Positions 4,024 through 41,474 of a stretch of DNA of 64,000 nt are shown here, piece after piece (positions within the stretch are counted from its first letter, which is position 1; each line of letters begins with the position of its first letter). Source of the stretch: an uncultured Muribaculaceae bacterium (lineage in GTDB: Bacteria > Bacillota_I > Bacilli_A > RF39 > UBA660); contig CAZHOG010000001.1 in the NCBI GenBank assembly GCA_964533935.1, positions 35,702 through 99,701 on the forward strand, written 5' to 3'. The notes below the pieces were generated by a model that worked only from the letters and a program-made list of their open reading frames with translations, made no database searches and was not told the DNA's origin. Position numbers and translations under genes: made by a program.

Positions 4024-4476
4024 TTATTTATTTTGATGATGTTTATTTACATAAAATAGTTCTTGAAGTGCTTCTTTTGTTTTAGGATCATCAATTTTCA
4101 TAAGACGGTCATAAATAGTAGAAACAGGTCTATCATACTTTAAAGAAGCTTCAGATAAAGTTAAATTATTATTTAACATTTGCTCTAATATTTCAGTGAT
4201 TTCAAAATCACTAATTGATGGCGTAGCAACACCATTTTTTCCACCAACCTGATTGCCTATTTTAATTAGTCCTTTTTGAACTTCTTTAACAGCAATATAT
4301 AAGTCATTATTTATAGAAGGTAAATTATTTTTATCGTTGATATATTTTTTTATTGAAGAAATAGAAATTCCAAAATGATTAGCAGTTACTTCAATAGTAG
4401 CTTTATTTTCAATAATATACTTACTGATTTCTAATATTTTTCGCTCTTTTTCTCTTTTTATTTCTTCCTGTGTCAT
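4024..4476 (-). CDS. SpoIIID-like helix-turn-helix DNA-binding protein with a C-terminal extension
   Basis: Residues ~10-65 align with SpoIIID (KIGKYIVETKKTVRVIAKEFGVSKSTVHKDL..LPEINPDLANEVKE versus EISKYIIENKATIEVTANHFGISISSIKKYI..LPSINNDLYIAVKE). A second HTH-like segment lies near the C-terminus. Confidence 0.45.
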   Translation of the reverse strand: MTQEEIKREKERKILEISKYIIENKATIEVTANHFGISISSIKKYINDKNNLPSINNDLYIAVKEVQKGLIKIGNQVGGKNGVATPSISDFEITEILEQMLNNNLTLSEASLKYDRPVSTIYDRLMKIDDPKTKEALQELFYVNKHHQNK

Positions 4477-19614: not shown

Positions 19615-19962
19615 TTAGTCCTCAAAAAACTTATTAATTGGTCTAGGATTTAATGGCCCTTTAGCTAAATTAGCAACACCAGACGTTGAAGTTTTACCAG
19701 TAAGTTCTTGTACTACTCCAATTGCTTTTTGAGCAGTATTTATATGTTTTTGAATAGAATTAGTATCAATTCCTTTGATTATATCAGATATATTATTAAT
19801 ACCAGTTTTAGTGCTTTTAATATAAGAACTCCATGCATTATTGTCATCTCCATATATATCATATATTTCATAGAATTTTTGCCATGTCATATCTCCAGTT
19901 TTTATATACTCAACTAATTCAGGATGAGATTTTGCAAATATTTTAAATTCTTCTTTTGACAT
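19615..19962 (-). CDS. Small conserved hypothetical protein
   Basis: A 115-aa ORF. The segment HPELVEYIKTGDMTWQKFYEIY recalls Bacillus YlbD-type proteins, with uncertainty. Confidence 0.35.
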   Translation of the reverse strand: MSKEEFKIFAKSHPELVEYIKTGDMTWQKFYEIYDIYGDDNNAWSSYIKSTKTGINNISDIIKGIDTNSIQKHINTAQKAIGVVQELTGKTSTSGVANLAKGPLNPRPINKFFED

Positions 19963-27654: not shown

Positions 27655-28635
27655 TTACTTATCTCCTTCTTCTAACATAGTAGTAATAAATAAACCATAG
27701 CCTGTTTTAACTTTATCAACTACAACATGCGTTACTACACCACATATTTTATCATTTTGAACAATTGGGCTGCCTGACATTCCCTGAACAATTCCACCAG
27801 TTTCATTCAATAGTTTTTCATCAGTTATTTCAAAGCTTAAATTTTTTACTTTACTATTTTTATTTATCTTTGTAATATTTATTTCAAATTTTTCTTTATT
27901 TGTATCATTTAATACAGTATAAATATATGCCTTTCCCAATGAAATTTCATCTTTAGATGCAACCTCTATTAAACTTGAAGTATCTATTTCGCTTTTATAA
28001 TCACCAAATATACCATAAATAGTATTTTTATTTATAGTACCAAATTTATTTTTAGAATTAAATTTAGCATTTTTTTCTCCTGGACTTCCATCAATTGATT
28101 TATCAATACCTGTTATTGAACTCTCAAATATGTAACCAGTTTTTACTTCAATTCTTTTATTTGAATTACTTTCTATTATCTCATGTCCCAAACTTCCATA
28201 TATTTTCGTTTCAGGATCAATATATGAAATTGTACCAATTCCTTTGATATTATCTTTAACATATAAACCAGTTTTATAAATTCCGTTTTCACTATATAAA
28301 TGTAGTGTTGAAGTGATTTCTTCATCATTTCTTTTTATAATCAGCTCTATTTTATTATCTATTATATTTTTTTCTATAGCATTTGTAAGTTCATTTATAG
28401 AACTAATTTTTGTATCTCCAACTTGAGTAATTAAGTCCCCTACTTTTAATTCATTACTCCCTTTATTTAAAGTACCATTAACTTTATAAAATCCAATAAT
28501 TATAACCCCATTGTTTTCTATATTTATACCTATATTTTGGCCACCTAAAACTACTTTACTAGAATATGCAAAGACATTAAAAGGCAACAATAATGCCACA
28601 AATAATGAGACTATTTTATACTTAATATTTTTCAT
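27655..28635 (-). CDS. SpoIVB-like S55 serine peptidase with a PDZ domain
   Basis: It has a signal peptide, a PDZ-like region (VGDLITQVGDTKI) and the catalytic-serine motif GGIVQGMSGSPIVQN..CGVVTHV. That motif is typical of the sporulation peptidase SpoIVB. Confidence 0.65.
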   Translation of the reverse strand: MKNIKYKIVSLFVALLLPFNVFAYSSKVVLGGQNIGINIENNGVIIIGFYKVNGTLNKGSNELKVGDLITQVGDTKISSINELTNAIEKNIIDNKIELIIKRNDEEITSTLHLYSENGIYKTGLYVKDNIKGIGTISYIDPETKIYGSLGHEIIESNSNKRIEVKTGYIFESSITGIDKSIDGSPGEKNAKFNSKNKFGTINKNTIYGIFGDYKSEIDTSSLIEVASKDEISLGKAYIYTVLNDTNKEKFEINITKINKNSKVKNLSFEITDEKLLNETGGIVQGMSGSPIVQNDKICGVVTHVVVDKVKTGYGLFITTMLEEGDK

Positions 28636-28710: not shown

Positions 28711-30024
28711 TTATTTGGTTAATTTTCTAGCATCATCTAATTGTTTAAAATATGTATTTCTTCTTAATTTATTTAAAGCTGAGCTTTCAATTTGTCTTAT
28801 TCTTTCTCGAGTAACACCCATCATACTGCCAATTTCTTCCAATGTATAAACTCGTCCATCATAAAATCCCATTCTATAAAATACTATTTTAAATTCTCTT
28901 TCATTTAAAATTGATTTTAAAGCTTCTACTGTTTGAACTGATGATAAATTATCTAATGCAGTTTTTTCAACGTTTATTGGAGATTCAATAAAATCTTCTA
29001 AGCAAACCTTATCATTGTGTTCTTCTGACACTACTGAATTTAAAGACACCATATCATTTTGATATTTATTTATAATTTCAATATCTTTTATTGAAAAACC
29101 AGTCAATTTGGAAAGCTCTTCGAGTGATGGTTGACGATTATTTTCAGAAACAAATTTAAATACAATAGCTTTTAACTTAACTGTTTTCGATTGTAAGTGT
29201 ACTGGTTTTCTAATTGTTGCACAAAAATTATAATAATATCTACCTACATAGTGTTCAATCCAATTAACAGCATAAGTTGAAAACTTAAAACCTAATTTAT
29301 AATTAAAGCTTTTTATTGCTCTTTCTAATCCAAAATATCCTTCTTGAATAACATCATCTAATTCAATCTTGCTTTTTCCTTGAGGGTTTATACGCTTGTA
29401 ATAAAAATTAGAAGCAATAAATCTAACTAAAGGAAGATTTTTTTCAATAATAATGCTTTTGTATTCTTCATAATTATTTGAATCTTTTTCTAAAGCTTCA
29501 AATAATTTTTGCTCTTCAGCAAAGGTTAATGTAGAAACTTTTGAAATGGATTGATCATCAGTTTCAACTATTTCAATATTATTTTTATCTAAATACAAAG
29601 TAATAATTGTTTTAAAATTAACATCTTCACCATAAAATGAATCAATATAATCAGATTTAACTGCTTTTTTATTACCAACTACTTTTTCTAAAAACATATT
29701 AAATTTAGGCAAATTCATTATTACATTTGCTTCTTCTAAAGAAAGTTCATATTCATAACGATTTAAAAAAGAAAAAAATTGAATAAATTTACTTGCTAAT
29801 GTAGTAGCAGTAGCTTCACCATCAAATGGAATAGACTCGAATTGTTTAATTATTATAGGTAATGATAAATTATTCTTTAAATATATATTTACTGCTTTAT
29901 GTACACCAGCTTTTGTTAATTCTTTTTTCGGTATAGAATTATATACTTTTTTTAAATCACTTTCATTCTCAAAATAGTTTGCGTAACTCTGTAATGCTTC
30001 TTTATATGACATTGTTTCATTCAT
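28711..30024 (-). CDS. Sigma-70 family RNA polymerase sigma factor with a ~190-aa N-terminal extension
   Basis: Region 2 is present (DVIQEGYFGLERAIKSFNYKLGFKFSTYAVNWIEHY) and so is region 4 ([30 protein letters not shown]). The first ~190 aa do not resemble sigma regions. Confidence 0.7.
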   Translation of the reverse strand: MNETMSYKEALQSYANYFENESDLKKVYNSIPKKELTKAGVHKAVNIYLKNNLSLPIIIKQFESIPFDGEATATTLASKFIQFFSFLNRYEYELSLEEANVIMNLPKFNMFLEKVVGNKKAVKSDYIDSFYGEDVNFKTIITLYLDKNNIEIVETDDQSISKVSTLTFAEEQKLFEALEKDSNNYEEYKSIIIEKNLPLVRFIASNFYYKRINPQGKSKIELDDVIQEGYFGLERAIKSFNYKLGFKFSTYAVNWIEHYVGRYYYNFCATIRKPVHLQSKTVKLKAIVFKFVSENNRQPSLEELSKLTGFSIKDIEIINKYQNDMVSLNSVVSEEHNDKVCLEDFIESPINVEKTALDNLSSVQTVEALKSILNEREFKIVFYRMGFYDGRVYTLEEIGSMMGVTRERIRQIESSALNKLRRNTYFKQLDDARKLTK

Positions 30025-31539: not shown

Positions 31540-31767
31540 CTACTCTTCAATATTAAAATCTTCTAAAGATCCATTTTCTTTTAATATTTTATTTACACTT
31601 TCTGTTGCATTATTTAACTTTTTACTACAATTAGCAGCTAAATTCATAGCTTCAGTATATTTTTTTATTGCTTCATCTAATTCAGTATTGCCATTTTCTA
31701 ATTCTTTAACAATACTTTCTAATTTATTTAATGATTCTTCAAAAGACATTTCTTTTTCTTCCATCAT
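31540..31767 (-). CDS. xseB: Exodeoxyribonuclease VII small subunit
   Basis: MSFEESLNKLESIVKELENGNTELDEAIKKYTEAMNL is the typical XseB helical hairpin. The likely start is the internal Met (MSFEE). It is immediately downstream of xseA. Confidence 0.85.
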   Translation of the reverse strand: MMEEKEMSFEESLNKLESIVKELENGNTELDEAIKKYTEAMNLAANCSKKLNNATESVNKILKENGSLEDFNIEE

Positions 31768-32972
31768 TCTACCTCCTTAACAATTGCTTTAATATTACCT
31801 TGATGAAATCTTACATTAATTTCATCATTAACATCTAAACTTTTACTATCTTTAATTACTTCATCGTTTTTTGATACCAGTGAATATCCCTTATCTAAAA
31901 TATTTAATGGATTAACTAATTTTAAAGTATTTGAATTTAAAATTAGCAGATGTTTTTTATTAAGTAAATAAGATTTAATAAAATTATTTAGTTTATCTAT
32001 ATTACTATCTAATTTTTGTTCTTTTACTTCATATATTGCCAATGGATTTTTTAAAATATATGATTTTTTAATATTATCTAATCTATTTTCTTTTAATTTT
32101 AATAAATTCATAATGAATTTATTATTTCTTAATTCTAATTGATTTATTTTAAAATTAACATCACTTATAGTTGGAACAGCCATTTCAGCAGCTCCAGTTG
32201 GAGTCGGTGCTCTTAAATCAGCTACATAATCAGCTATTGTAAAATCAATTTCATGTCCAACAGCACTTATTATAGGTATCTCACTATTAAATATTGCTCT
32301 AGCAACTATTTCTTCATTAAAGGCCCATAAATCTTCTATAGAACCACCACCACGGCCACAAATAATTACATCAAGATCATATTCATTGGCTTTTTTAATT
32401 TGATTAACAATATCTGGTGCTGCACTTTTTCCTTGAACTAAACAAGGAAATAAAATAGTTTCACATATTGGATATCTTCTTTTAATTGTACTAATAATAT
32501 CTTTAATAGCTGCACCAGTAGATGCAGTAATAACACCTATTTTTGTTGGATATTTTGGAATTGGCTTTTTATGAATATTATCGAACAAACCTTCAGCAGC
32601 TAACTTTTTCTTAAGTTTTTCAAATTCTAAATATAAATTACCAAGGCCATCCATTTCCATTTTATCAACATAGATTTGATATGTTCCTTGAGCCGGATAA
32701 CAAGAAACTCTTCCTTCAACTAAAACATTCATCCCATCTTCAGGAACAAAAGACAATTTAGTAGCATTACCTGCAAACATCACTGCACTTAATCTAGAAT
32801 CATCATCTTTTAAAGTAAAATATAAATGTCCTCTAGTATGATTTTTAAAATTAGAAATTTCACCTTTTAAATAAACATGTTGCAAATGTGAATTATTATC
32901 AAACATAGATTTTAAATAATTATTGATTCTTGAAATTGTAACATATTTATCTTCCATGGGACTTATCTTCAC
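31764..32972 (-). CDS. xseA: Exodeoxyribonuclease VII large subunit
   Basis: It has an N-terminal OB-fold (tRNA_anti-like) and the catalytic domain. Its position after nusB is conserved. Confidence 0.9.
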   Translation of the reverse strand: MKISPMEDKYVTISRINNYLKSMFDNNSHLQHVYLKGEISNFKNHTRGHLYFTLKDDDSRLSAVMFAGNATKLSFVPEDGMNVLVEGRVSCYPAQGTYQIYVDKMEMDGLGNLYLEFEKLKKKLAAEGLFDNIHKKPIPKYPTKIGVITASTGAAIKDIISTIKRRYPICETILFPCLVQGKSAAPDIVNQIKKANEYDLDVIICGRGGGSIEDLWAFNEEIVARAIFNSEIPIISAVGHEIDFTIADYVADLRAPTPTGAAEMAVPTISDVNFKINQLELRNNKFIMNLLKLKENRLDNIKKSYILKNPLAIYEVKEQKLDSNIDKLNNFIKSYLLNKKHLLILNSNTLKLVNPLNILDKGYSLVSKNDEVIKDSKSLDVNDEINVRFHQGNIKAIVKEVE

Positions 32973-33891
32973 TTTCTATTTTTAATTTATTTATAGCATT
33001 TGTTATTTCATTGTAATTCATTTCATAATTTCTTATTAAAGTACTCTTATACATATATGGAAAAGAAATATTTCTTTTATCTTCAATATTTAAAATAATT
33101 TCTTTTAATTTATTTGGAGTAAAGTAATAATATATATTTAAGAATTGATTAATATTTTCTCTTCCAGAAAAACTTAAATATTTTTCTATTTCAACGTTAC
33201 CGCAATATTCATTTTCAACTTTCATTTGAGGAATAAACCCCATAAAATTAAAAGACAATTCATTATCATATAATGGAGTTAATGTCGCAATATTCTTTTT
33301 GGCATTTTCCATTATTTCCCAATTTCTTTCATGTCTATCATTTTGCATAGTTAAATAATCTAGAGAATATCTTTTTGTTAATTCAACCATAATATTTTTT
33401 ACAATGTTTAGTCGATTATCTTCATCATAATTATGGAAATGATAGTTTAATGCATCCCAAATATTTTCAAGATTATTCATATCATTAATTAAATATTTTC
33501 TCAAATCATCATTTAATGGATATTTAATAACATAAGTTGGATTAATATATTCATTTATTAGCTTATTCTCTTCTAAATAATTCAAATACTCTTCTAATAT
33601 AATAGAACCATTAATGTAAGAAAAATCAGCTTGACGATAATCTTTTGTTAATGTTCCAATTTTATTATTTATTTGAGCAGCTTCAATATGAACAACATCT
33701 ATCCCAATTTCTTTGGCCATTTCTTCAACAATCATATCGTTATAAATAGATTCCATTTTATAAGAATTATCAAAGTTTTTTAACGCATTTTTAAAAAAAT
33801 ATTCTTCGCCATTTATATTAATAGTATTTTTTCTTTGAAAGAAGAACTTCTTTTTACAGTATTTACTAATATCAACAATTCCGTTTTCCAT
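32947..33891 (-). CDS. HipA-like (HipA_C-fold) putative Ser/Thr kinase, short form (paralog 1)
   Basis: It has a HipA-type substrate-binding helix motif (EEMAKEIGIDVVHIE), a catalytic-loop-like LDYLTMQNDRHERNW (D.H..N), and an APxYD-like Mg-binding motif (LTPLYDNE). It overlaps the xseA start by 26 nt. Confidence 0.4.
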   Translation of the reverse strand: MENGIVDISKYCKKKFFFQRKNTININGEEYFFKNALKNFDNSYKMESIYNDMIVEEMAKEIGIDVVHIEAAQINNKIGTLTKDYRQADFSYINGSIILEEYLNYLEENKLINEYINPTYVIKYPLNDDLRKYLINDMNNLENIWDALNYHFHNYDEDNRLNIVKNIMVELTKRYSLDYLTMQNDRHERNWEIMENAKKNIATLTPLYDNELSFNFMGFIPQMKVENEYCGNVEIEKYLSFSGRENINQFLNIYYYFTPNKLKEIILNIEDKRNISFPYMYKSTLIRNYEMNYNEITNAINKLKIESEDKSHGR

Positions 33892-33892
33892 T

Positions 33893-34288
33893 TTATTCCC
33901 TTATTAATTTATCTAAAACTGCATTAATAATCTTTCTAACATTATCATCACTATATTTTTTAGCTAATTCTATTGCTTCATTAATAACTACAATTTCTGG
34001 AGTATCAGTGTATTTTAATTCAAAAATACCAATTCTTAAAATAGATGCTCCAGTTTTATCAATACGATCAATAGTCCAATCTTTCATATGTGAATTTGCT
34101 ATTTCATTTAATTCATCATAATGGGCTAAAACACCATTAACAATCTCGTTAACAAATTCATTATCGTAATCAATATTATCTTTAATAATTTCTTCAATCG
34201 GAGTTGTATTATTACTCTTATTGATTATTTCATTTTGATATAAAATTATCATACATTTTTCTCTTAATTCACTTCTATTAAGTGCCAT
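33893..34288 (-). CDS. nusB: Transcription antitermination factor NusB
   Basis: It is a 131-aa all-helical protein with conserved NusB motifs (LYQ.E......; ID.....N.AVLD). Its position upstream of xseA is conserved. Confidence 0.85.
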   Translation of the reverse strand: MALNRSELREKCMIILYQNEIINKSNNTTPIEEIIKDNIDYDNEFVNEIVNGVLAHYDELNEIANSHMKDWTIDRIDKTGASILRIGIFELKYTDTPEIVVINEAIELAKKYSDDNVRKIINAVLDKLIRE

Positions 34289-34335
34289 AATTAATCACCA
34301 AAGTAATTATACCATAATACTTAGTAAAAACATAG

Positions 34336-34367
34336 AAAAAATCGGCTTTTAAATTGCCGATTTATTT
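34336..34367 (-). terminator. Rho-independent terminator after the small ORF
   Basis: On the minus strand AAATCGGC-AATTTAAAA-GCCGATTT is followed by TTTTCTATG. Confidence 0.45.
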
Positions 34368-34370
34368 AAT

Positions 34371-34526
34371 TCATTTACATTCATGAAACATATCATTTGC
34401 TTCATCTAACATTGAATTTATTAAGCGATCTGCTTGCTTTTTTGTATTTTTATTTAATAATACATATGCTGTTAAACCAGCAGTTCCAAGCATTGTTAAT
34501 CCTACTATTCCCATAGTTTTTTTCAT
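34371..34526 (-). CDS. Small (51-aa) putative membrane protein. It is absent from the ORF track.
   Basis: My own translation is MKKTMGIVGLTMLGTAGLTAYVLLNKNTKKQADRLINSMLDEANDMFHECK. It is preceded by an AAGGATGTGAG RBS and followed by a clean terminator. Confidence 0.35.
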   Translation of the reverse strand: MKKTMGIVGLTMLGTAGLTAYVLLNKNTKKQADRLINSMLDEANDMFHECK

Positions 34527-34558
34527 ATACTCACATCCTTAAAATTAATATTCCCTAA

Positions 34559-36784
34559 TCAATCAAAAATATTCTCAATTTTAGTTTTTAAAGATGTCTT
34601 TCTATTTTGTGAATAATCATTATTAACTGCCATTCTAAATGATATATCTTCACCAATTACTACTAAACTTTTCTTGGCTCTAGAAACACCAGTATAGATA
34701 AGTTTATTATATAGCATTCTGTTATATGCTTTACTAATAGGCATTATAACATGAGCAAATTCACTACCTTGAGATTTATGAATTGTAATTGCATAAGCAT
34801 GTTTAATTAATGCCATATCCTCTTTTTTATATTCAACATAATTTCCATCAAAATCTATTGTTATAATTTCAGTTTTCTTAGGATTATAAACTGTAGTAAT
34901 TGAAGAAATATATCCAATATCACCATTATAAACATTACAATCAGGATTATTAGCAAGTTGCAAAACTTTATCTTGTTCACGGAATAATACATGATTAGCA
35001 ATAACTTCTTTTTTATCTTCACTAGCAGGATTAAATAATTCTTGCATTAAAACATTTAAATTATCTATGCCATTTTCTCCCCTATACATGGGAGCTAAAA
35101 TTTGCAGTTCTTGAGGTTTTAACCCCTTTTTTATGCTTTTAATGACCACTTGTCTGATATATTCTTTTATGTTTTTTGAATCAATATTCAAAAAATTATA
35201 ATCATCTTTTTTAGTCAAAAAATTTTCTGATAAATCATGCTCTTTAATTTCTTTTGCAAGAAGTGGTATATATGAATTATCACTTTGACGATAAATCTTA
35301 GATAGTGGGCAAAAATTAAATTTATTAGATTCTATTAAATCGTTTAATACTAGTCCTGAACCAACACTTGGTAATTGAAATGCATCTCCAACTAATACAA
35401 GCTGAATATTATTGTCTAATCCCTTAAGAAGTGAATCCATTAAAAATGTGTCAATCATACTTACTTCATCTACAATAATTAATCTTTGATGATTTTTGTT
35501 ATATTCATTTACTGCAAAAGAATTACTATCTTTATTCCATTTTAAAAACCTATGAATTGTAGATGCAGGCAAATTGGTAGATTCACTCATTTTTTTACTT
35601 GCTCTACCAGTTGGAGCTAAAAGAGCAATATTTGTAATAACATCTATTGGAGATAATTTATAATATTCAATATATAATCTACAAATAGCATTAATTATTG
35701 TTGTTTTTCCAGTACCAGGACCTCCAGATATAATTGTTATTCGATTTTGAAGAGCTGTTTTAATAGCATTTTCTTGATCATTATTATAATTAACATCCAA
35801 ATCATGTTCTAAATTTTCTATTTTTCCATCAATATTTTTTAATTTCTTTACATCCAGTTCCATGATATTTTTTAATGAGACAGCAATATTTTGTTCCATA
35901 TCATATATTTCTTTTAAATAATATTTATCTTCTTCTAAAATAATCATTTCATTTTTTATAAGTTCAGTAAGTAAGTTATTTAAATAAACTTCATCTAATT
36001 TAATCCCAAATTCATGGTTCAATTTATCTTCTATTTCTTCTTTACTATAAAGGGTATCACCATTAGAATCACTTAATATTCTCATACTTTCTATAATACA
36101 CGCTTTTACTCTTATTTCATCATCATATTGATTATTATTTAAAAATATATGATCCAGTTTATTAAATGGAATAATTTCTTTTAATACATAAATATTTGTA
36201 TCAATCAAAGCTAACGTTTTATCTTTATAATGATTAAATATCCTTATTGCTTCAGCAATAGAAAAACCAATTTTTTTCAATTCTAATATTGTATCATCGG
36301 CATTTGATGCAGCAACAACAGAATTATAAATTTTTTCTGCTTTATTTACATTCATATTAGGTACCATTAATAAATTATTAGGATTTTCTTTTATTTTATT
36401 TATAGTATCTTCTCCAAATACTTCAACAATTTTTATTGCTGTTTTACTACCACAGCCTTTAATTAAAGGACTACTTAAAAACTCTATTATTCCCTCTTTT
36501 GTAGTTGGCAGTACTTTTTCATAATTAGAAAATTTAAACTGGTTGCCAAATCTTTCATGATTCACATATTCTCCAGATAATACATAATTATCTTCAAAAT
36601 TAGGATCTATTATTGAACCAGTAATAGTAATAGTTTTATTGATTAAATCATCTAAATCATTATTGTCAGTTTCTTTTACTCTAAAAAGTCCAACAAAAAA
36701 GCCATTGTCATTTTGATAGATAGTACTTTTGATTTTGCCTTTTATGTTGTCCATATTTATATCACCTAAAAACAATTGTATCAT
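34559..36784 (-). CDS. recD2: RecD2-like ATP-dependent DNA helicase (RecD/TraA family)
   Basis: It has an N-terminal OB/HhH region, SF1 helicase motifs (ISGGPGTGKTT; LIIVDEVSMID; VLVGDAFQLPSVG), and a C-terminal SH3-like domain. Confidence 0.85.
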   Translation of the reverse strand: MIQLFLGDINMDNIKGKIKSTIYQNDNGFFVGLFRVKETDNNDLDDLINKTITITGSIIDPNFEDNYVLSGEYVNHERFGNQFKFSNYEKVLPTTKEGIIEFLSSPLIKGCGSKTAIKIVEVFGEDTINKIKENPNNLLMVPNMNVNKAEKIYNSVVAASNADDTILELKKIGFSIAEAIRIFNHYKDKTLALIDTNIYVLKEIIPFNKLDHIFLNNNQYDDEIRVKACIIESMRILSDSNGDTLYSKEEIEDKLNHEFGIKLDEVYLNNLLTELIKNEMIILEEDKYYLKEIYDMEQNIAVSLKNIMELDVKKLKNIDGKIENLEHDLDVNYNNDQENAIKTALQNRITIISGGPGTGKTTIINAICRLYIEYYKLSPIDVITNIALLAPTGRASKKMSESTNLPASTIHRFLKWNKDSNSFAVNEYNKNHQRLIIVDEVSMIDTFLMDSLLKGLDNNIQLVLVGDAFQLPSVGSGLVLNDLIESNKFNFCPLSKIYRQSDNSYIPLLAKEIKEHDLSENFLTKKDDYNFLNIDSKNIKEYIRQVVIKSIKKGLKPQELQILAPMYRGENGIDNLNVLMQELFNPASEDKKEVIANHVLFREQDKVLQLANNPDCNVYNGDIGYISSITTVYNPKKTEIITIDFDGNYVEYKKEDMALIKHAYAITIHKSQGSEFAHVIMPISKAYNRMLYNKLIYTGVSRAKKSLVVIGEDISFRMAVNNDYSQNRKTSLKTKIENIFD

Positions 36785-36811
36785 AAAAAAGATAAAAGAA
36801 TATATTTTCTT

Positions 36812-37732
36812 TTATCTTTTTAATGGTTTAAAATTATTTAATTCATTTTGTAACATATTATAATTAAATACATATTGAGAATAAATAGAATCTTTTATCT
36901 TATTATCTATTTTAAAGTTTAACTTATATTCAAGATTTATAAACATTCTTTTTACTTCCAAAGGATTTAAATAATTCATTAATCTTTCAAATTCATCTTG
37001 AAAATATGAAGATGAATAATTCAAAAATTTTTGTAATTCACTTATATTAGAATATTCTTCATTTTCATTAAATACATCAGTTCTTATATTTAAATTCTTT
37101 TCTGAATTTGTGTGAAGGCCATTTAACATTTTTTGATTATCAAAAATTGGTGCAAGTGTAGCATAATCTTCTGTTTCTTCTACTAACCAATTATATGAAG
37201 CACCATCACATTGATTAATTAATATATCAAATAAATATTTTTCCGATAATTTATATAAAATATTTTTAATAATATTCTTCTTATTAGGGTTATTTCGATA
37301 TTTAATTTCAAGTAAATCCCAGATGCTTTCAAGATTATTATATTTAGCATAATCTATTTTATCAGTTGGTTCTTCATCAAGATATCTATGATAATTTTCA
37401 ATCAAATCATCTCCTGAATAATAGTTACAATAGTCTTTTTTAAAATCTTTTGTAATTACACCATACATTCCATTAAATAATGCTAAATCATATGTTGCAT
37501 GATCATAACCAACAGTTTCTAACATTTCACTAGCTAGTAATTCTTTTATTTCTTCGTCTTTTGAACTGCACATTTTGAACATATACCTTTGATTGCCAAT
37601 AGAAAACCAGAAATTAACATCATTTATAATTTCTACTACACCCATTTTTTCCAATTTGTATACATTCATGCAATTATATTTTTCTAAAAAATAGGAATCT
37701 AAATCAATATAGCCATTATTTCTTTCAAACAT
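36812..37732 (-). CDS. HipA-like (HipA_C-fold) protein, paralog 2, with a degenerate catalytic loop
   Basis: It aligns along its whole length with the 32947..33891 product (LASEMLETVGYDHATYD; NLESIWDLLE; LAPIFDNQ). The catalytic-loop equivalent is CDGASYNW, where Asp and Asn are kept but His is replaced. Confidence 0.4.
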   Translation of the reverse strand: MFERNNGYIDLDSYFLEKYNCMNVYKLEKMGVVEIINDVNFWFSIGNQRYMFKMCSSKDEEIKELLASEMLETVGYDHATYDLALFNGMYGVITKDFKKDYCNYYSGDDLIENYHRYLDEEPTDKIDYAKYNNLESIWDLLEIKYRNNPNKKNIIKNILYKLSEKYLFDILINQCDGASYNWLVEETEDYATLAPIFDNQKMLNGLHTNSEKNLNIRTDVFNENEEYSNISELQKFLNYSSSYFQDEFERLMNYLNPLEVKRMFINLEYKLNFKIDNKIKDSIYSQYVFNYNMLQNELNNFKPLKR

Positions 37733-37743
37733 TTTAACCTCTA

Positions 37744-39217
<1,474 letters not shown>

Positions 39218-39252: not shown

Positions 39253-40449
39253 CTATCGTTTTAATTGACTAGAATTTATTCTAGAATATATTTGATTTAA
39301 TAAATTATCATCAGATTTATAATTATCTGATATTTTAATATGCATAGAATTATCAATTTCATTTGGATAAATTATATTATCCATGTTTTCTAATTGATAA
39401 CCAACTCTATTAAAACTTCTTATTAATTTTTGAGACATATTATTTTGGTTAAAATCTCTTTTATTTTCTAACTCTAAAATTTTATTTTTAATAGTATCGT
39501 CATCATATAAAAATTTAAAGTTTTTAAGAGCTCTTTCCGAGCCAATCTTTTTTTCATAATATCTTAATGGTAAATAATCTATTACAACAATATCTTCTAT
39601 ATCATTTGTTTTTAACATTTTAATTGTTGCAGTAATACTTAATAAAGAACTCATAGAAACATCAGAAATATTTTCTGGATAATAGTTACTCTCATTATTT
39701 TTATAATCATAATATTCCTTACTGTCTAAAATATTTTTATTAAACGAATATAACTTTCTATTTATAGATTTTTCATATCTATTTAATATTTTTTTATTAT
39801 GATTTTGAACAGCATAAATATATGCAGTTTTTCTACCATTAGCATCATCAATTCCATAGCAAACCTTTGGTAAATCAAAATAATTCATTGTAGTCCCATC
39901 ATTATGTGCTAATCGAAATTTCAAACAATATGGAGTTTCTAATGAATAATATAATGGTTCTCTTTTCATTTCTAATACAGAATCATTTAATTCTTCAATA
40001 TTACAAATATTAGAATATCTTGAATAACTTTTAAAAGTATCATCATTAATAAAATTAGTTCTCATTTTCAGGTATGCTACTGGATTATTTAAATCTTGTT
40101 CACGAGCATTAAAAAAAGCTAAAGTTAAAATATATTTAATATTTTCTCTAGAAGTTAATTCATATATGTGATTAATAAGTGATTCAGTTAAATCATGTTT
40201 TATCATTAACTTTATTTGTGAATTCACATAATCTACTAATGCATTATCAAATAAATCTTTGTTTTTAATCATCAATAATGGTAACTCATTATTTCTAATA
40301 TTACTTTTATTTTCAATAGTAGTATTAAACCCTATTGAAAATGTAGCAACATCATTATTAATTTTCTGATTACTTATTATTTCAATACTTCCATTACATG
40401 CACTTGGTACAATTTCATTATAAAATATACTTAAAATTAAATTTTTCAT
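39253..40449 (-). CDS. Hypothetical protein inserted between queA and tgt
   Basis: A 398-aa cytosolic-looking ORF with no recognised motif. Its stop and start are tightly packed between queA and tgt. Confidence 0.5.
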   Translation of the reverse strand: MKNLILSIFYNEIVPSACNGSIEIISNQKINNDVATFSIGFNTTIENKSNIRNNELPLLMIKNKDLFDNALVDYVNSQIKLMIKHDLTESLINHIYELTSRENIKYILTLAFFNAREQDLNNPVAYLKMRTNFINDDTFKSYSRYSNICNIEELNDSVLEMKREPLYYSLETPYCLKFRLAHNDGTTMNYFDLPKVCYGIDDANGRKTAYIYAVQNHNKKILNRYEKSINRKLYSFNKNILDSKEYYDYKNNESNYYPENISDVSMSSLLSITATIKMLKTNDIEDIVVIDYLPLRYYEKKIGSERALKNFKFLYDDDTIKNKILELENKRDFNQNNMSQKLIRSFNRVGYQLENMDNIIYPNEIDNSMHIKISDNYKSDDNLLNQIYSRINSSQLKR

Positions 40450-41474
40450 TATTTAATAAACATTGCATCCCCAAAGGAAAAAAATCTATAATTATTTTTA
40501 ATAGCTTCCTCGTATGCATTTATAATATATTCTTTTTTTGATAAGGCACTAACCAACATTAATAATGTAGACTTTGGAAGATGAAAATTAGTAATCAAAC
40601 CATTAATTGCTTTAAATTCATATCCAGGATAAATAAATATTTCAGTGTTTCCTGAACATTCACAAAATGTATCATATTTTGCCATTATTGTTTCCAAAGT
40701 TCGAGTAGAAGTTGTACCAACAGCATAAATATTTCTATTTTCTTTTTTAGCTAAATTTAAAACTTCTGCTGTTTCTTTTGTCATTTGATAAAATTCACTA
40801 TGCATATGATGTTCTTTTATATTTTCTACTTCAACTGGTCTAAATGTCCCAAGTCCAACGTGAAGTGTTACGTATTCAATAATAATACCCTTATTCTTAA
40901 TTTCTTCTAATAATTCTTTTGTAAAATGTAACCCAGCAGTTGGAGCTGCAGCACTACCTATATTTTTAGCATAAACAGTTTGATATCTACTTTGATCATT
41001 TAGTTTTTCATGAATATATGGTGGCAATGGCATTGTTCCCAATCTATCAAGAATTTCCATTAATATTCCATCATAAATTAATTTAACATGAGTAATTCCT
41101 TCATCCATCTTTTTCGTTACAACAGCTTTTAATAATCCATCACCAAAACTAATTACAGTATCTATTTTAAGACGTTTAGCAGGTTTAGATAAACATTCCC
41201 ACTCATCATCACCTAAATCTTTTAATAATAATAATTCAATAACCGCATCTGTTTCTTCTTTATGTCCTATTAATCTTGCTGGAATAACTTTAGTATCATT
41301 TAAAACTAAAACATCACCAGCATTTAAATAATTTATTATATTTTTAAAAACTTCATGCTTTAATTCACCAGTATTTTTGTTTAGTACCATTAATTTTGAA
41401 TCACTTCTGTTTTTTAATGGTGTTTGAGCAATTAACTCCTCAGGTAAATTATAATCATAATCACTTGTATTCAT
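40449..41474 (-). CDS. queA: S-adenosylmethionine:tRNA ribosyltransferase-isomerase
   Basis: It has the N-terminal [15 protein letters not shown] and conserved QueA core motifs. Confidence 0.95.

What the first reader, a model, noticed from the sequence alone, without database searches (positions are those of the whole stretch)
32947..37732. Two paralogous short HipA-like kinase-fold proteins sit in housekeeping neighbourhoods without HipB or HipS partners, and one has a degenerate catalytic loop
The two genes are 32947..33891 (overlapping the xseA start, directly after nusB) and 36812..37732 (before recD2). They encode ~310-aa proteins that align with each other along their whole length. Both carry features of the HipA C-terminal kinase fold: a substrate-binding helix motif (E.MA.E.GIDV), a catalytic-loop-like QNDRHERNW (D.H..N), and an APxYD-like Mg-site (LTPLYDNE / LAPIFDNQ). 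In paralog 2 the loop reads CDGASYNW, with Asp and Asn kept and His lost, which suggests a pseudokinase or altered chemistry. Short HipA-like kinases such as HipT normally come with HipS and HipB partners. Here no small partner or HTH gene is adjacent, and the genes replace the Asp23-family gene usually found upstream of nusB. This may be an uncharacterised orphan kinase family, possibly one that modifies tRNA or DNA-repair machinery given the neighbours.
Basis: partly seen in the sequence, partly recalled or inferred. Interest (0 to 1): 0.7.

Follow-up and report, generated by a model that had tools for sequence, protein, structure and literature searches.

The report
Two orphan CtkA/HipA-fold kinase paralogues
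Two fast-evolving genes wedged inside housekeeping and DNA-repair operons of an uncultured gut Bacilli bacterium encode small stand-alone kinases of the HipA/CtkA fold, members of an unannotated family with no toxin-antitoxin partners and an untested function.

Summary

They belong to an unannotated family of ~300-aa single-domain proteins. It has 316 clusters at E<1e-30, and every genome hit is an uncultured gut Bacilli/Erysipelotrichaceae MAG. Lys, Asp, Asn and the Mg-binding Asp are invariant, so activity is predicted. There is no Gly-rich loop, and the loop His is missing in 42% of 166 members, including the whole paralogue-2 clade.

The genes are inherited vertically in three conserved slots:
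- nusB-K-xseA
- tgt-small ORF-K-recD2
- pcrA-NTP transferase-K-ligA

Their proteins have diverged about 2-5 times as far (by dN) as those of their neighbours. No HipB, HipS, HIRAN, plasmid or close phage link was found.

The fold, paralogy, His loss and orphan status hold. Paralogue 1 lies downstream of nusB, not in the Asp23 slot. A 106-aa membrane-protein ORF does sit next to paralogue 2. The pseudokinase inference is weak. This is a new variant of a known kinase kind, and its substrate is unknown.

The parts
32947..33891 (-). Paralogue 1 (314 aa): a stand-alone CtkA/HipA-fold kinase in the nusB-K-xseA slot.
33790..33801 (-). par1 YFFK (aa 31-34), containing the invariant ATP-binding Lys34.
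   Evidence: Lys is invariant in alignment A2 and in all clades. It aligns to the CtkA 'YMVK' strand. Coordinates.
33319..33345 (-). par1 catalytic loop QNDRHERNW (aa 183-191): D185, H187, N190.
   Evidence: Aligned to CtkA DRHNGNW and HipT DMHLKN. D and N are invariant.
33259..33282 (-). par1 Mg-binding motif LTPLYDNE (aa 204-211), with D209.
   Evidence: Aligned to CtkA APIFD and HipT SPAYD. D is invariant.
36812..37732 (-). Paralogue 2 (306 aa): a stand-alone CtkA/HipA-fold kinase in the tgt-orf106-K-recD2 slot.
   Evidence: ORF. AF2 model pLDDT 92. Foldseek ranks CtkA first at E=9e-10, then HipA and HipT. The same slot is found in L001-L004, L007 and L025.
37691..37729 (-). par2 N-terminal family motif FERNNGYIDLDSY. 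The family consensus is M-x-R-x-N-G-F-I-D-L-D-x-Y. It is degenerate in par1.
   Evidence: R and G are conserved in every clade except the par1 clade.
37574..37585 (-). par2 YMFK (aa 50-53), containing the invariant Lys53.
37187..37213 (-). par2 catalytic loop QCDGASYNW (aa 174-182). D176 and N181 are kept; His is replaced by Ala178.
   Evidence: Ala occurs in 11 of 12 par2-clade sequences.
37133..37156 (-). par2 Mg-binding motif LAPIFDNQ (aa 193-200), with D198.
37744..38064 (-). 106-aa ORF with an N-terminal hydrophobic helix. It overlaps tgt by 20 nt and ends 11 nt before par2. It may be co-transcribed with par2. It is not HipS-like.
   Evidence: It is conserved next to par2 in L001, L002 and L007 at 62-66% identity. 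No Pfam, PADLOC or PDB HipS match. It is not homologous to the small membrane proteins upstream of the ligA-slot kinases.

Best explanation
The two genes are ancient paralogues, inherited vertically, of an unannotated family of short (~280-335 aa), single-domain ATP-dependent kinases with the HipA/CtkA (PI3/4-kinase-like) fold.

Shown:
- The fold.
- Homology to CtkA, HipA and HipT.
- An invariant Lys, catalytic Asp, Asn and Mg-binding Asp.
- Tight packing with nusB/xseA and with tgt/recD2, on the same strand and without terminator-like sites between the kinase genes and their neighbours. They are therefore probably transcribed as part of those housekeeping operons.
- Fast but still constrained sequence evolution.

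Inferred:
- They are catalytically active Ser/Thr protein kinases of the CtkA type that act in trans on cellular proteins.
- ATP phosphate contacts come from something other than the classical Gly-rich loop, which the family lacks.
- The variable segment after the Mg motif, and the variable N-terminal insert, set substrate choice.
- They are not classical HipBA/HipBST toxin modules.

Paralogue 2 has lost the loop His and paralogue 1 has lost the N-terminal R/G motif, so the two probably differ in rate or substrate. Neither looks dead. The substrate is unknown. The repeated placement beside DNA-processing genes makes a DNA-repair or dNTP-metabolism protein the best guess.
For: - Sequence: Pfam HipA_C E=1.4e-5 and 0.0096. 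The A1 profile against PDB hits CtkA at E=2.6e-8 with DRHxxNW and APxxD aligned. PADLOC PDC-M03A E=8e-15 and 2e-19.
- Catalytic residues: K, D, N and D are invariant in all seven clades, 158 sequences.
- Family size: 2912 cluster representatives at E<1e-3 and 316 at E<1e-30. Nearly all of the 150 listed are 280-335 aa and match full length.
- Vertical inheritance in fixed slots.
- Selection: among near-identical strains dN/dS is 0.18-0.5 for the kinases and about 0.02-0.1 for tgt, xseA, recD2 and proS. Window against L007, the kinases are 47-49% identical and their neighbours 72-90%.
- No mobile-element signal: no plasmid hit, none in IMG/VR, and only four 25%-identity Vibrio records among phages.
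- No partner: no HipS, HipB or PADLOC hits for the neighbours.
Against: - There is no biochemical evidence, and the substrate class (protein or small molecule) is untested.
- The family lacks a Gly-rich loop, which HipA, HipT and CtkA use for ATP binding and autoregulation. In paralogue 1 that segment is deleted.
- The loop His is absent in paralogue 2.
- Pfam scores are below the gathering threshold.
- Some family copies look decayed: L014 is split into two ORFs.
- The nearest HMM family (PDC-M03A) is a candidate phage-defence component, which fits a toxin-like role better than a housekeeping one.
Confidence: 0.6

Rival explanations
1. They are HipA-like growth-arresting toxins or abortive-infection kinases. 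The neutralising partner or trigger is unrecognised. It could be the adjacent small membrane protein, a remote antitoxin, or a phage protein.
For: - The closest HMMs are PADLOC PDC-M03A, and all 50 sampled family members hit them with a best E of 1e-23. PDC systems are untested defence candidates predicted by 'guilt by embedding' (bioRxiv 10.1101/2024.01.29.577857).
- There is a weak match to PHROG 8728.
- Short Hip kinases of clade XI are described as TA toxins (PMC8262856).
- Fast evolution, tandem duplications (L006, L012) and allelic replacement of the nusB-par1 segment between strains resemble arms-race genes.
Against: - The genes sit in the same housekeeping slots across genomes whose kinases share only 26-35% identity. 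They are not in defence islands or mobile elements.
- No HipB, HipS, HIRAN or PDC-M03B-type neighbour was found.
- There are no plasmid or IMG/VR relatives.
- There is no Gly-rich loop with an autophosphorylation Ser.
- The small ORFs upstream in two slots are not homologous to each other.
Confidence: 0.15
2. They are small-molecule kinases acting on a sugar, lipid, nucleoside or similar compound, not protein kinases. The ligA-slot clade would work with the adjacent sugar-1-phosphate nucleotidyltransferase as a kinase-plus-nucleotidyltransferase activation pair.
For: - In the largest clade the kinase lies next to an NTP_transferase gene, directly or with one small ORF between them, in L006, L010, L017, L018, L023, L027 and L028.
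- Other slots adjoin dNTP-metabolism genes: thyX, NT5C and dut.
Against: - The two window genes have no nucleotidyltransferase neighbour.
- Apart from the catalytic core, family conservation is low, and orthologues have diverged about 2-5 times as far (by dN) as their neighbours. That is unusual for a metabolic enzyme with a fixed small substrate.
- The nearest characterised relatives, CtkA, HipA and HipT, are all protein kinases.
Confidence: 0.13
3. One or both paralogues are pseudokinases: catalytically dead scaffolds or ATP sensors. The two may act as a pair, because each has degenerated in a different element.
For: - par2 lacks the loop His, with Ala in 11 of 12 clade members.
- par1 lacks the N-terminal R/G motif and about 20 residues at the position of the Gly-rich loop.
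- The whole family lacks a Gly-rich loop.
- Both paralogues co-occur in every genome where both slots were visible: the window, L001, L003, L007 and L025.
Against: - Lys, the catalytic Asp, Asn and the Mg-binding Asp are invariant in both clades. From my own knowledge, pseudokinases usually lose at least one of these.
- The His position is variable across the family, in 70 of 166 members.
- dN/dS is below 1.
Confidence: 0.12

Closest known systems
CtkA (JHP0940), the Helicobacter pylori cell-translocating Ser/Thr kinase; PDB 3akj/3akk/3akl
   Same: - Best sequence match in the PDB (profile E=2.6e-8, with DRHxxNW and APxFD aligned).
- Similar size, single domain, and not found with a HipB/HipS partner.
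   Different: - CtkA has a Gly-rich loop (GFGGANGNK). In the profile alignment this falls opposite the variable, glycine-poor insert of this family.
- From my own knowledge, CtkA is encoded in a strain-variable plasticity zone and acts on host cells. These genes are fixed in housekeeping operons of gut Bacilli.
- Identity is only 13-18%.
HipA (HipBA) and HipT (HipBST) toxin kinases
   Different: - There is no HipB HTH gene, no HipS gene and no N-subdomain-1.
- There is no Gly-rich loop with an autophosphorylated Ser.
- Pfam HipA_C scores are below threshold (25.3 and 16 bits against a cut-off of 30.5).
- The genes are inherited vertically in housekeeping operons and are not patchy TA loci.
Short Hip kinases of clade XI (HipG, HipI, HipJ, HipM; Gerdes et al. 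2021, PMC8262856) and PADLOC candidate PDC-M03A
   Same: - Size class is 279-321 aa, core kinase domain only.
- PDC-M03A HMMs are the best-scoring library models, E down to 2e-19 for par2 and matched by 50 of 50 family members.
- That PDC-M03A corresponds to HipI-type kinases is my inference from PMC11706625. I did not test it.
   Different: - Those kinases have a Gly-rich loop near the N terminus and a downstream putative antitoxin (HipS-like, HipS-HIRAN, resolvase-like or Stl-like). Neither is present here.
- The matches to PDC-M03A are moderate (best 1e-23), so this looks like a sister family and not the same one.

Membership tests
HipA/CtkA-like kinase superfamily (Pfam HipA_C PF07804 and relatives) | Bilobal PI3/4-kinase-like fold shared by HipA, HipT and CtkA | tested here: met
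   [not shown]
HipA/CtkA-like kinase superfamily (Pfam HipA_C PF07804 and relatives) | Catalytic loop D-x-x-x-x-N, a downstream Mg-binding Asp and an ATP-binding Lys | tested here: met
   They align to the CtkA and HipT motifs. K, D, N and D are invariant in 158 sequences from 7 clades.
HipA/CtkA-like kinase superfamily (Pfam HipA_C PF07804 and relatives) | Score above the Pfam gathering threshold for HipA_C (30.5 bits) | tested here: not met
   Scores are 25.3 bits for par1 and 16 bits for par2. Only 29 of 50 family members hit at E<0.01.
HipA/CtkA-like kinase superfamily (Pfam HipA_C PF07804 and relatives) | Gly-rich (P-loop-like) ATP-binding loop before the Lys strand | tested here: not met
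   No glycine-rich column exists in that region in 182 sequences. The segment is variable, and it is deleted in the par1 clade.
HipA/CtkA-like kinase superfamily (Pfam HipA_C PF07804 and relatives) | Protein Ser/Thr kinase activity | not testable with these tools
   This needs biochemistry.
HipBA type II toxin-antitoxin | Adjacent HipB HTH antitoxin/repressor gene | tested here: not met
   The neighbours are nusB/xseA and orf106/recD2. No HTH gene is adjacent.
HipBA type II toxin-antitoxin | N-subdomain-1 of about 100 aa, giving a protein of about 440 aa | tested here: not met
   The proteins are 314 and 306 aa. The kinase core starts within about 30-50 residues of the N terminus.
HipBST tripartite toxin-antitoxin (HipT) | HipS gene (about 100 aa, similar to HipA N-subdomain-1) immediately upstream, with HipB upstream of that | tested here: not met
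   The 106-aa upstream ORF has no Pfam Couple_hipA or HipA_N hit, no HipS hit in the PDB and no PADLOC hit. Ten other small ORFs in the window were also negative. The rest of the genome could not be examined.
HipBST tripartite toxin-antitoxin (HipT) | Autophosphorylated Ser residues in the Gly-rich loop | tested here: not met
   There is no Gly-rich loop and no conserved Ser/Thr at that position.
CtkA family | Significant full-length sequence and structure similarity to CtkA | tested here: met
   [not shown]
PADLOC candidate system PDC-M03 | PDC-M03A HMM match | tested here: met
   E=8e-15 for par1 and 2e-19 for par2. The library gives no curated cut-off.
PADLOC candidate system PDC-M03 | Multi-gene system: a PDC-M03B partner next to A, embedded in or near defence systems | tested here: not met
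   Ten neighbours from five contexts gave no PADLOC hit of any kind. All the neighbourhoods are housekeeping genes.

The most novel reading that the evidence does not exclude
The family may be a set of dedicated kinases, or guards, for DNA-processing enzymes. Each ancient paralogue is fixed in an operon beside a different DNA-repair or dNTP-metabolism gene: xseA, recD2, pcrA/ligA, tag, thyX/NT5C and dut. This holds for 6 of 7 independent slots.

A rough, post hoc binomial estimate gives P of about 0.002, assuming about a 26% chance that one of two neighbours is such a gene. If the pattern is real, these PI3K-like-fold kinases would phosphorylate or monitor their neighbour. That would be a bacterial counterpart of the logic of eukaryotic PIKK DNA-damage kinases. 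Alternatively they could be a guard system for repair enzymes targeted by phage inhibitors.

The link between other short Hip kinases and HIRAN DNA-end-binding domains (PMC8262856, PMC11706625) points the same way.
Probability: 0.12. Interest if true: 0.8.

Novelty: new variant of a known kind. Interest (0 to 1): 0.5.

Why it matters
HipA-type kinases are known almost only as toxins of toxin-antitoxin modules, which drive persistence and possibly phage defence, or as the secreted effector CtkA. This family has the same fold but is not mobile, has no partner gene, lacks the Gly-rich loop and is built into core operons of a little-studied group of gut Bacilli. Its genes lie repeatedly beside DNA-repair genes.

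If the proteins are active, they would extend the HipA superfamily to housekeeping or regulatory roles. They would also show how this fold can bind ATP without its usual loop. If the DNA-repair link is real, they would reveal a new layer of control or surveillance of repair enzymes in bacteria.

In practical terms, Pfam thresholds miss the family and NCBI names a member 'hypothetical protein', so a dedicated profile would improve the annotation of these gut Bacilli MAGs (316 clusters at E<1e-30).

Tried and rejected
- NCBIfam scan of both proteins: only noise.
- Single-sequence search of par1 against PDB sequences: no hit. The family profile was needed.
- Word-index homologue searches: only 11 and 9 relatives. 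A third search with the 50-sequence profile returned only 8 proteins and no names.
- afdb50 fold search: library not available.
- BFVD viral structures: only distant PI3K/CotH-like domains in large proteins.
- IMG/VR scan: failed with A4 because no stretch was conserved enough, and found no relatives with A1.
- JGI metagenome scan: only 6 loci.
- Phage GenBank tblastn: four Vibrio records at 25% identity.
- Plasmids: none.
- Promoter and terminator scan: uninformative in 25% GC DNA. Promoter-like sites were fewer than in shuffles. The only terminator-like site lies inside the 51-aa ORF between recD2 and nusB.
- A shared small membrane partner for the kinase: rejected. The 106-aa ORF upstream of par2 and the 135-159-aa ORFs upstream of the ligA-slot kinases are not homologous and have no PADLOC hits.
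- HipS-like partner among small window ORFs: none found.
- The 292- and 295-aa ORFs in L033 as extra divergent kinases: no HMM or Pfam hit.
Full report
**1. Observation**

The minus strand carries an unbroken run of genes in one direction:

queA (40449..41474) - unknown 398-aa ORF (39253..40449) - tgt (38045..39166) - 106-aa ORF (37744..38064) - paralogue 2 (36812..37732, 306 aa) - recD2 (34559..36784) - 51-aa ORF (34371..34526) - nusB (33893..34288) - paralogue 1 (32947..33891, 314 aa) - xseA (31764..32972) - xseB - proS - a sigma-70-family gene - spoIVB-like.

- Spacing is very tight. nusB to par1 is 1 nt. par1 overlaps the xseA ORF by 26 nt. orf106 to par2 is 11 nt. par2 to recD2 is 27 nt.
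- The only terminator-like site in 31-42 kb lies inside the 51-aa ORF. Co-transcription with the neighbours is therefore likely, but it is inferred.
- The two proteins align over about 290 residues at 30% identity, E=3e-27.
- GC content is about 25% throughout the window.

**2. Fold and homology**

- Pfam HipA_C matches both proteins below its 30.5-bit cut-off: 25.3 bits (E=1.4e-5) and 16 bits (E=0.0096).
- AlphaFold2 models built on 19-sequence alignments are confident: pLDDT 89.4 and pTM 0.89 for par1, pLDDT 91.9 and pTM 0.90 for par2.
- Foldseek with par2 gives the same order.
- A profile of 20 family sequences hits the CtkA sequence at E=2.6e-8. It aligns the Lys strand (YMVK), the catalytic loop (DRHNGNW) and the Mg motif (APIFD). 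HipT of Legionella aligns at E=0.004.

**3. The family**

- An exhaustive profile search of 1.84 billion cluster representatives found 2912 proteins at E<1e-3, 908 at E<1e-10 and 316 at E<1e-30. Nearly all of the 150 best listed are 280-335 aa and match full length.
- Every hit in species-representative genomes is an uncultured Bacilli or Erysipelotrichaceae gut MAG. One contig comes from a 'Muribaculaceae' bin, but its nusB and xseA are 57-59% identical to those of the window, so it is probably mis-binned.
- One member is deposited as 'hypothetical protein [Bacilli bacterium]'.
- Pfam HipA_C detects only 29 of 50 sampled members, with a best E of 8e-9.
- All 50 sampled members match PADLOC PDC-M03A models, but only moderately, with a best E of 1e-23. 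PDC systems are untested 'phage defence candidates' predicted by guilt-by-embedding.
- I read the family as a sister to the short Hip kinases, not as a member of any named group.

**4. Anatomy**

- Across seven clades (158 sequences), Lys53, Asp176, Asn181 and Asp198 (par2 numbering) are invariant. The exceptions number about four sequences: three at the Lys column and one at Asn.
- The His two residues after the catalytic Asp is present in 94 of 166 proteins and replaced in 70.
- His is kept in the par1 clade (11 of 16). It is Ala in the par2 clade (11 of 12). The His loss is therefore a stable clade character and not a lesion of this genome.
- The family has no Gly-rich loop. The columns that face CtkA's GFGGANGNK are a variable, glycine-poor insert. 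The par1 clade has deleted about 20 residues there.
- The family has its own N-terminal motif, M-x-R-x-N-G-F-I-D-L-D-x-Y. It is conserved everywhere except in the par1 clade.
- A second signature, NNLExIW, lies before the catalytic loop.
- Each window paralogue is thus degenerate in a different accessory element, and both keep the catalytic quartet.
- Conservation is highest in the catalytic core. It is lowest in the N-terminal insert and in the 20 residues after the Mg motif, which occupy the position of the activation or substrate loop.

**5. Genomic behaviour**

The kinase genes (K) sit in a few fixed slots.

| Slot | Arrangement | Where seen |
|---|---|---|
| 1 | nusB-K-xseA | window, L001, L003, L007, L008, L009, L011/L026, L012 (three tandem copies), L019/L020, L025, L032, L033 |
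| 1b | K-nusB (variant of slot 1) | L031 |
| 2 | tgt-small ORF-K-recD2 | window, L001-L004, L007, L025 |
| 3 | pcrA-(ORF)-NTP_transferase-(small membrane ORF)-K-ligA | L006 (two tandem copies), L010, L014 (split copy), L017, L018, L023, L027, L028, L030 |
| 4 | tag-K-tex | L016 |
| 5 | thyX-(NT5C)-K | L013, L015 |
| 6 | dut / K / spoVT | L021 |
| 7 | no obvious theme | L005 |

- Slot 1 kinases share as little as 26-35% identity, while NusB stays at 55-70% and XseA at 57-78%.
- Between the window and L007 the neighbours are 72-90% identical and the kinases 47-49%.
- Among near-identical strains dN/dS is 0.18-0.5 for the kinases and about 0.02-0.1 for tgt, xseA, recD2 and proS.
- The genes are therefore under purifying selection, but they have diverged about 2-5 times as far (by dN) as their neighbours.
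- No relatives were found on plasmids or in IMG/VR. Among phage records there were only four 25%-identity hits, in 14-kb Vibrio elements.

**6. Partners**

- No HTH gene is adjacent.
- The 106-aa ORF upstream of par2 has an N-terminal hydrophobic helix. It has no Pfam, PADLOC or PDB similarity to HipS.
- It is not homologous to the small membrane proteins upstream of the ligA-slot kinases.
- Ten other small ORFs of the window carry no HipS-type domain.
- The rest of the genome could not be searched.

**7. Interpretation**

- Best-supported reading (confidence about 0.6): two ancient paralogues of an unannotated family of stand-alone CtkA/HipA-fold kinases, predicted to be active and most likely protein Ser/Thr kinases, expressed as part of housekeeping operons. 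They are not classical TA toxins.
- Rival 1, cryptic toxin or abortive-infection kinases (0.15). The PDC-M03A similarity, fast evolution and tandem duplication favour it. The fixed housekeeping synteny and the lack of any partner or mobile-element link argue against it.
- Rival 2, small-molecule kinases (0.13). The constant NTP_transferase neighbour in slot 3 favours it. Fast evolution and the protein-kinase relatives argue against it.
- Rival 3, pseudokinases (0.12). The missing His, N-terminal motif and Gly-rich loop favour it. The invariant K/D/N/D residues and dN/dS below 1 argue against it.

**8. Most novel reading not excluded**

Six of seven independent slots place the kinase directly beside a DNA-repair or dNTP-metabolism gene. 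A rough post hoc estimate gives P of about 0.002. That figure rests on my own assumption about background gene frequency and is not a computed genome-wide control. The pattern would fit dedicated kinases, or guards, of DNA-processing enzymes. I give it a probability of about 0.12.

**9.

- Correct: the fold, the paralogy, the His loss and the orphan status.
- Incorrect: the gene does not replace Asp23 upstream of nusB, because it lies downstream of nusB. A small ORF is adjacent to par2.
- Unsupported: the 'substrate-binding helix' label.
- Weak: the pseudokinase inference.

Novelty: a new variant of a known kind. Interest: 0.5.

Noticed in passing
L001, L003, L007, L008 (orthologous to window 32947..34288): These strains have xseA, tgt and recD2 at 98-100% amino-acid identity. 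Even so, the nusB + par1 segment falls into two allele classes: nusB 79% identical (dS about 1.0) and par1 64% identical, next to xseA with dS about 0.16. It looks like a recombination-imported or hypervariable segment that includes an essential gene.
   Followed up: partly
L002 11496..16927; L003 11496..12530 (equivalent to window 34288..34559): The stretch between recD2 and nusB varies between strains. L003 has an extra 344-aa Gp10_C-domain gene there. In L002 the nusB-kinase-xseA block is replaced by ALK_LTK_GRD, Peptidase_M73-like and PFOR genes.
   Followed up: no
window 39253..40449 (-): A 398-aa ORF lies between queA and tgt and abuts queA. It has no Pfam, NCBIfam, PADLOC or significant PHROG match. 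It is absent from the same position in L007 and L025, where tgt follows queA directly.
   Followed up: partly
window 28711..30024 (-): A 437-aa sigma-70-family protein with a long N-terminal extension lies between proS and spoIVB. Its best NCBIfam match is MzaA, the sigma factor associated with the MZA anti-phage system, but far below the cut-off (172 bits against 800). RpoD models follow. Related genomes carry an unrelated ORF of about 215 aa in this slot.
   Followed up: no
window 34371..34526 (-): A 51-aa ORF with a hydrophobic N-terminal segment lies between recD2 and nusB. It is conserved as a 51-58-aa called gene in L001, L002-L004 and L033. The only terminator-like site of the region lies inside it.
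   Followed up: no
L012 3383..5761; L006 829..2686; L014 4336..5205: The kinase is tandemly amplified, with three copies in the nusB-xseA slot of L012 and two copies upstream of ligA in L006. In L014 one copy is split into two ORFs and is probably a pseudogene.
   Followed up: partly
window 4024..4476, 19615..19962, 27655..28635: Sporulation markers are present: a SpoIIID-like HTH protein, a YlbD coat protein and a SpoIVB-type peptidase. This low-GC, small-genome Bacilli lineage is therefore probably a spore former.
   Followed up: no
L010 5364..5843, L014 3918..4325, L017 5385..5834, L018 5359..5802, L023 3209..3637: A conserved family of small single-pass membrane proteins (135-159 aa) lies between the NTP_transferase and the ligA-slot kinase in some genomes. 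It is absent in L006, L027 and L028. It has no library match in the three tested and is not related to the 106-aa ORF of the window.
   Followed up: partly
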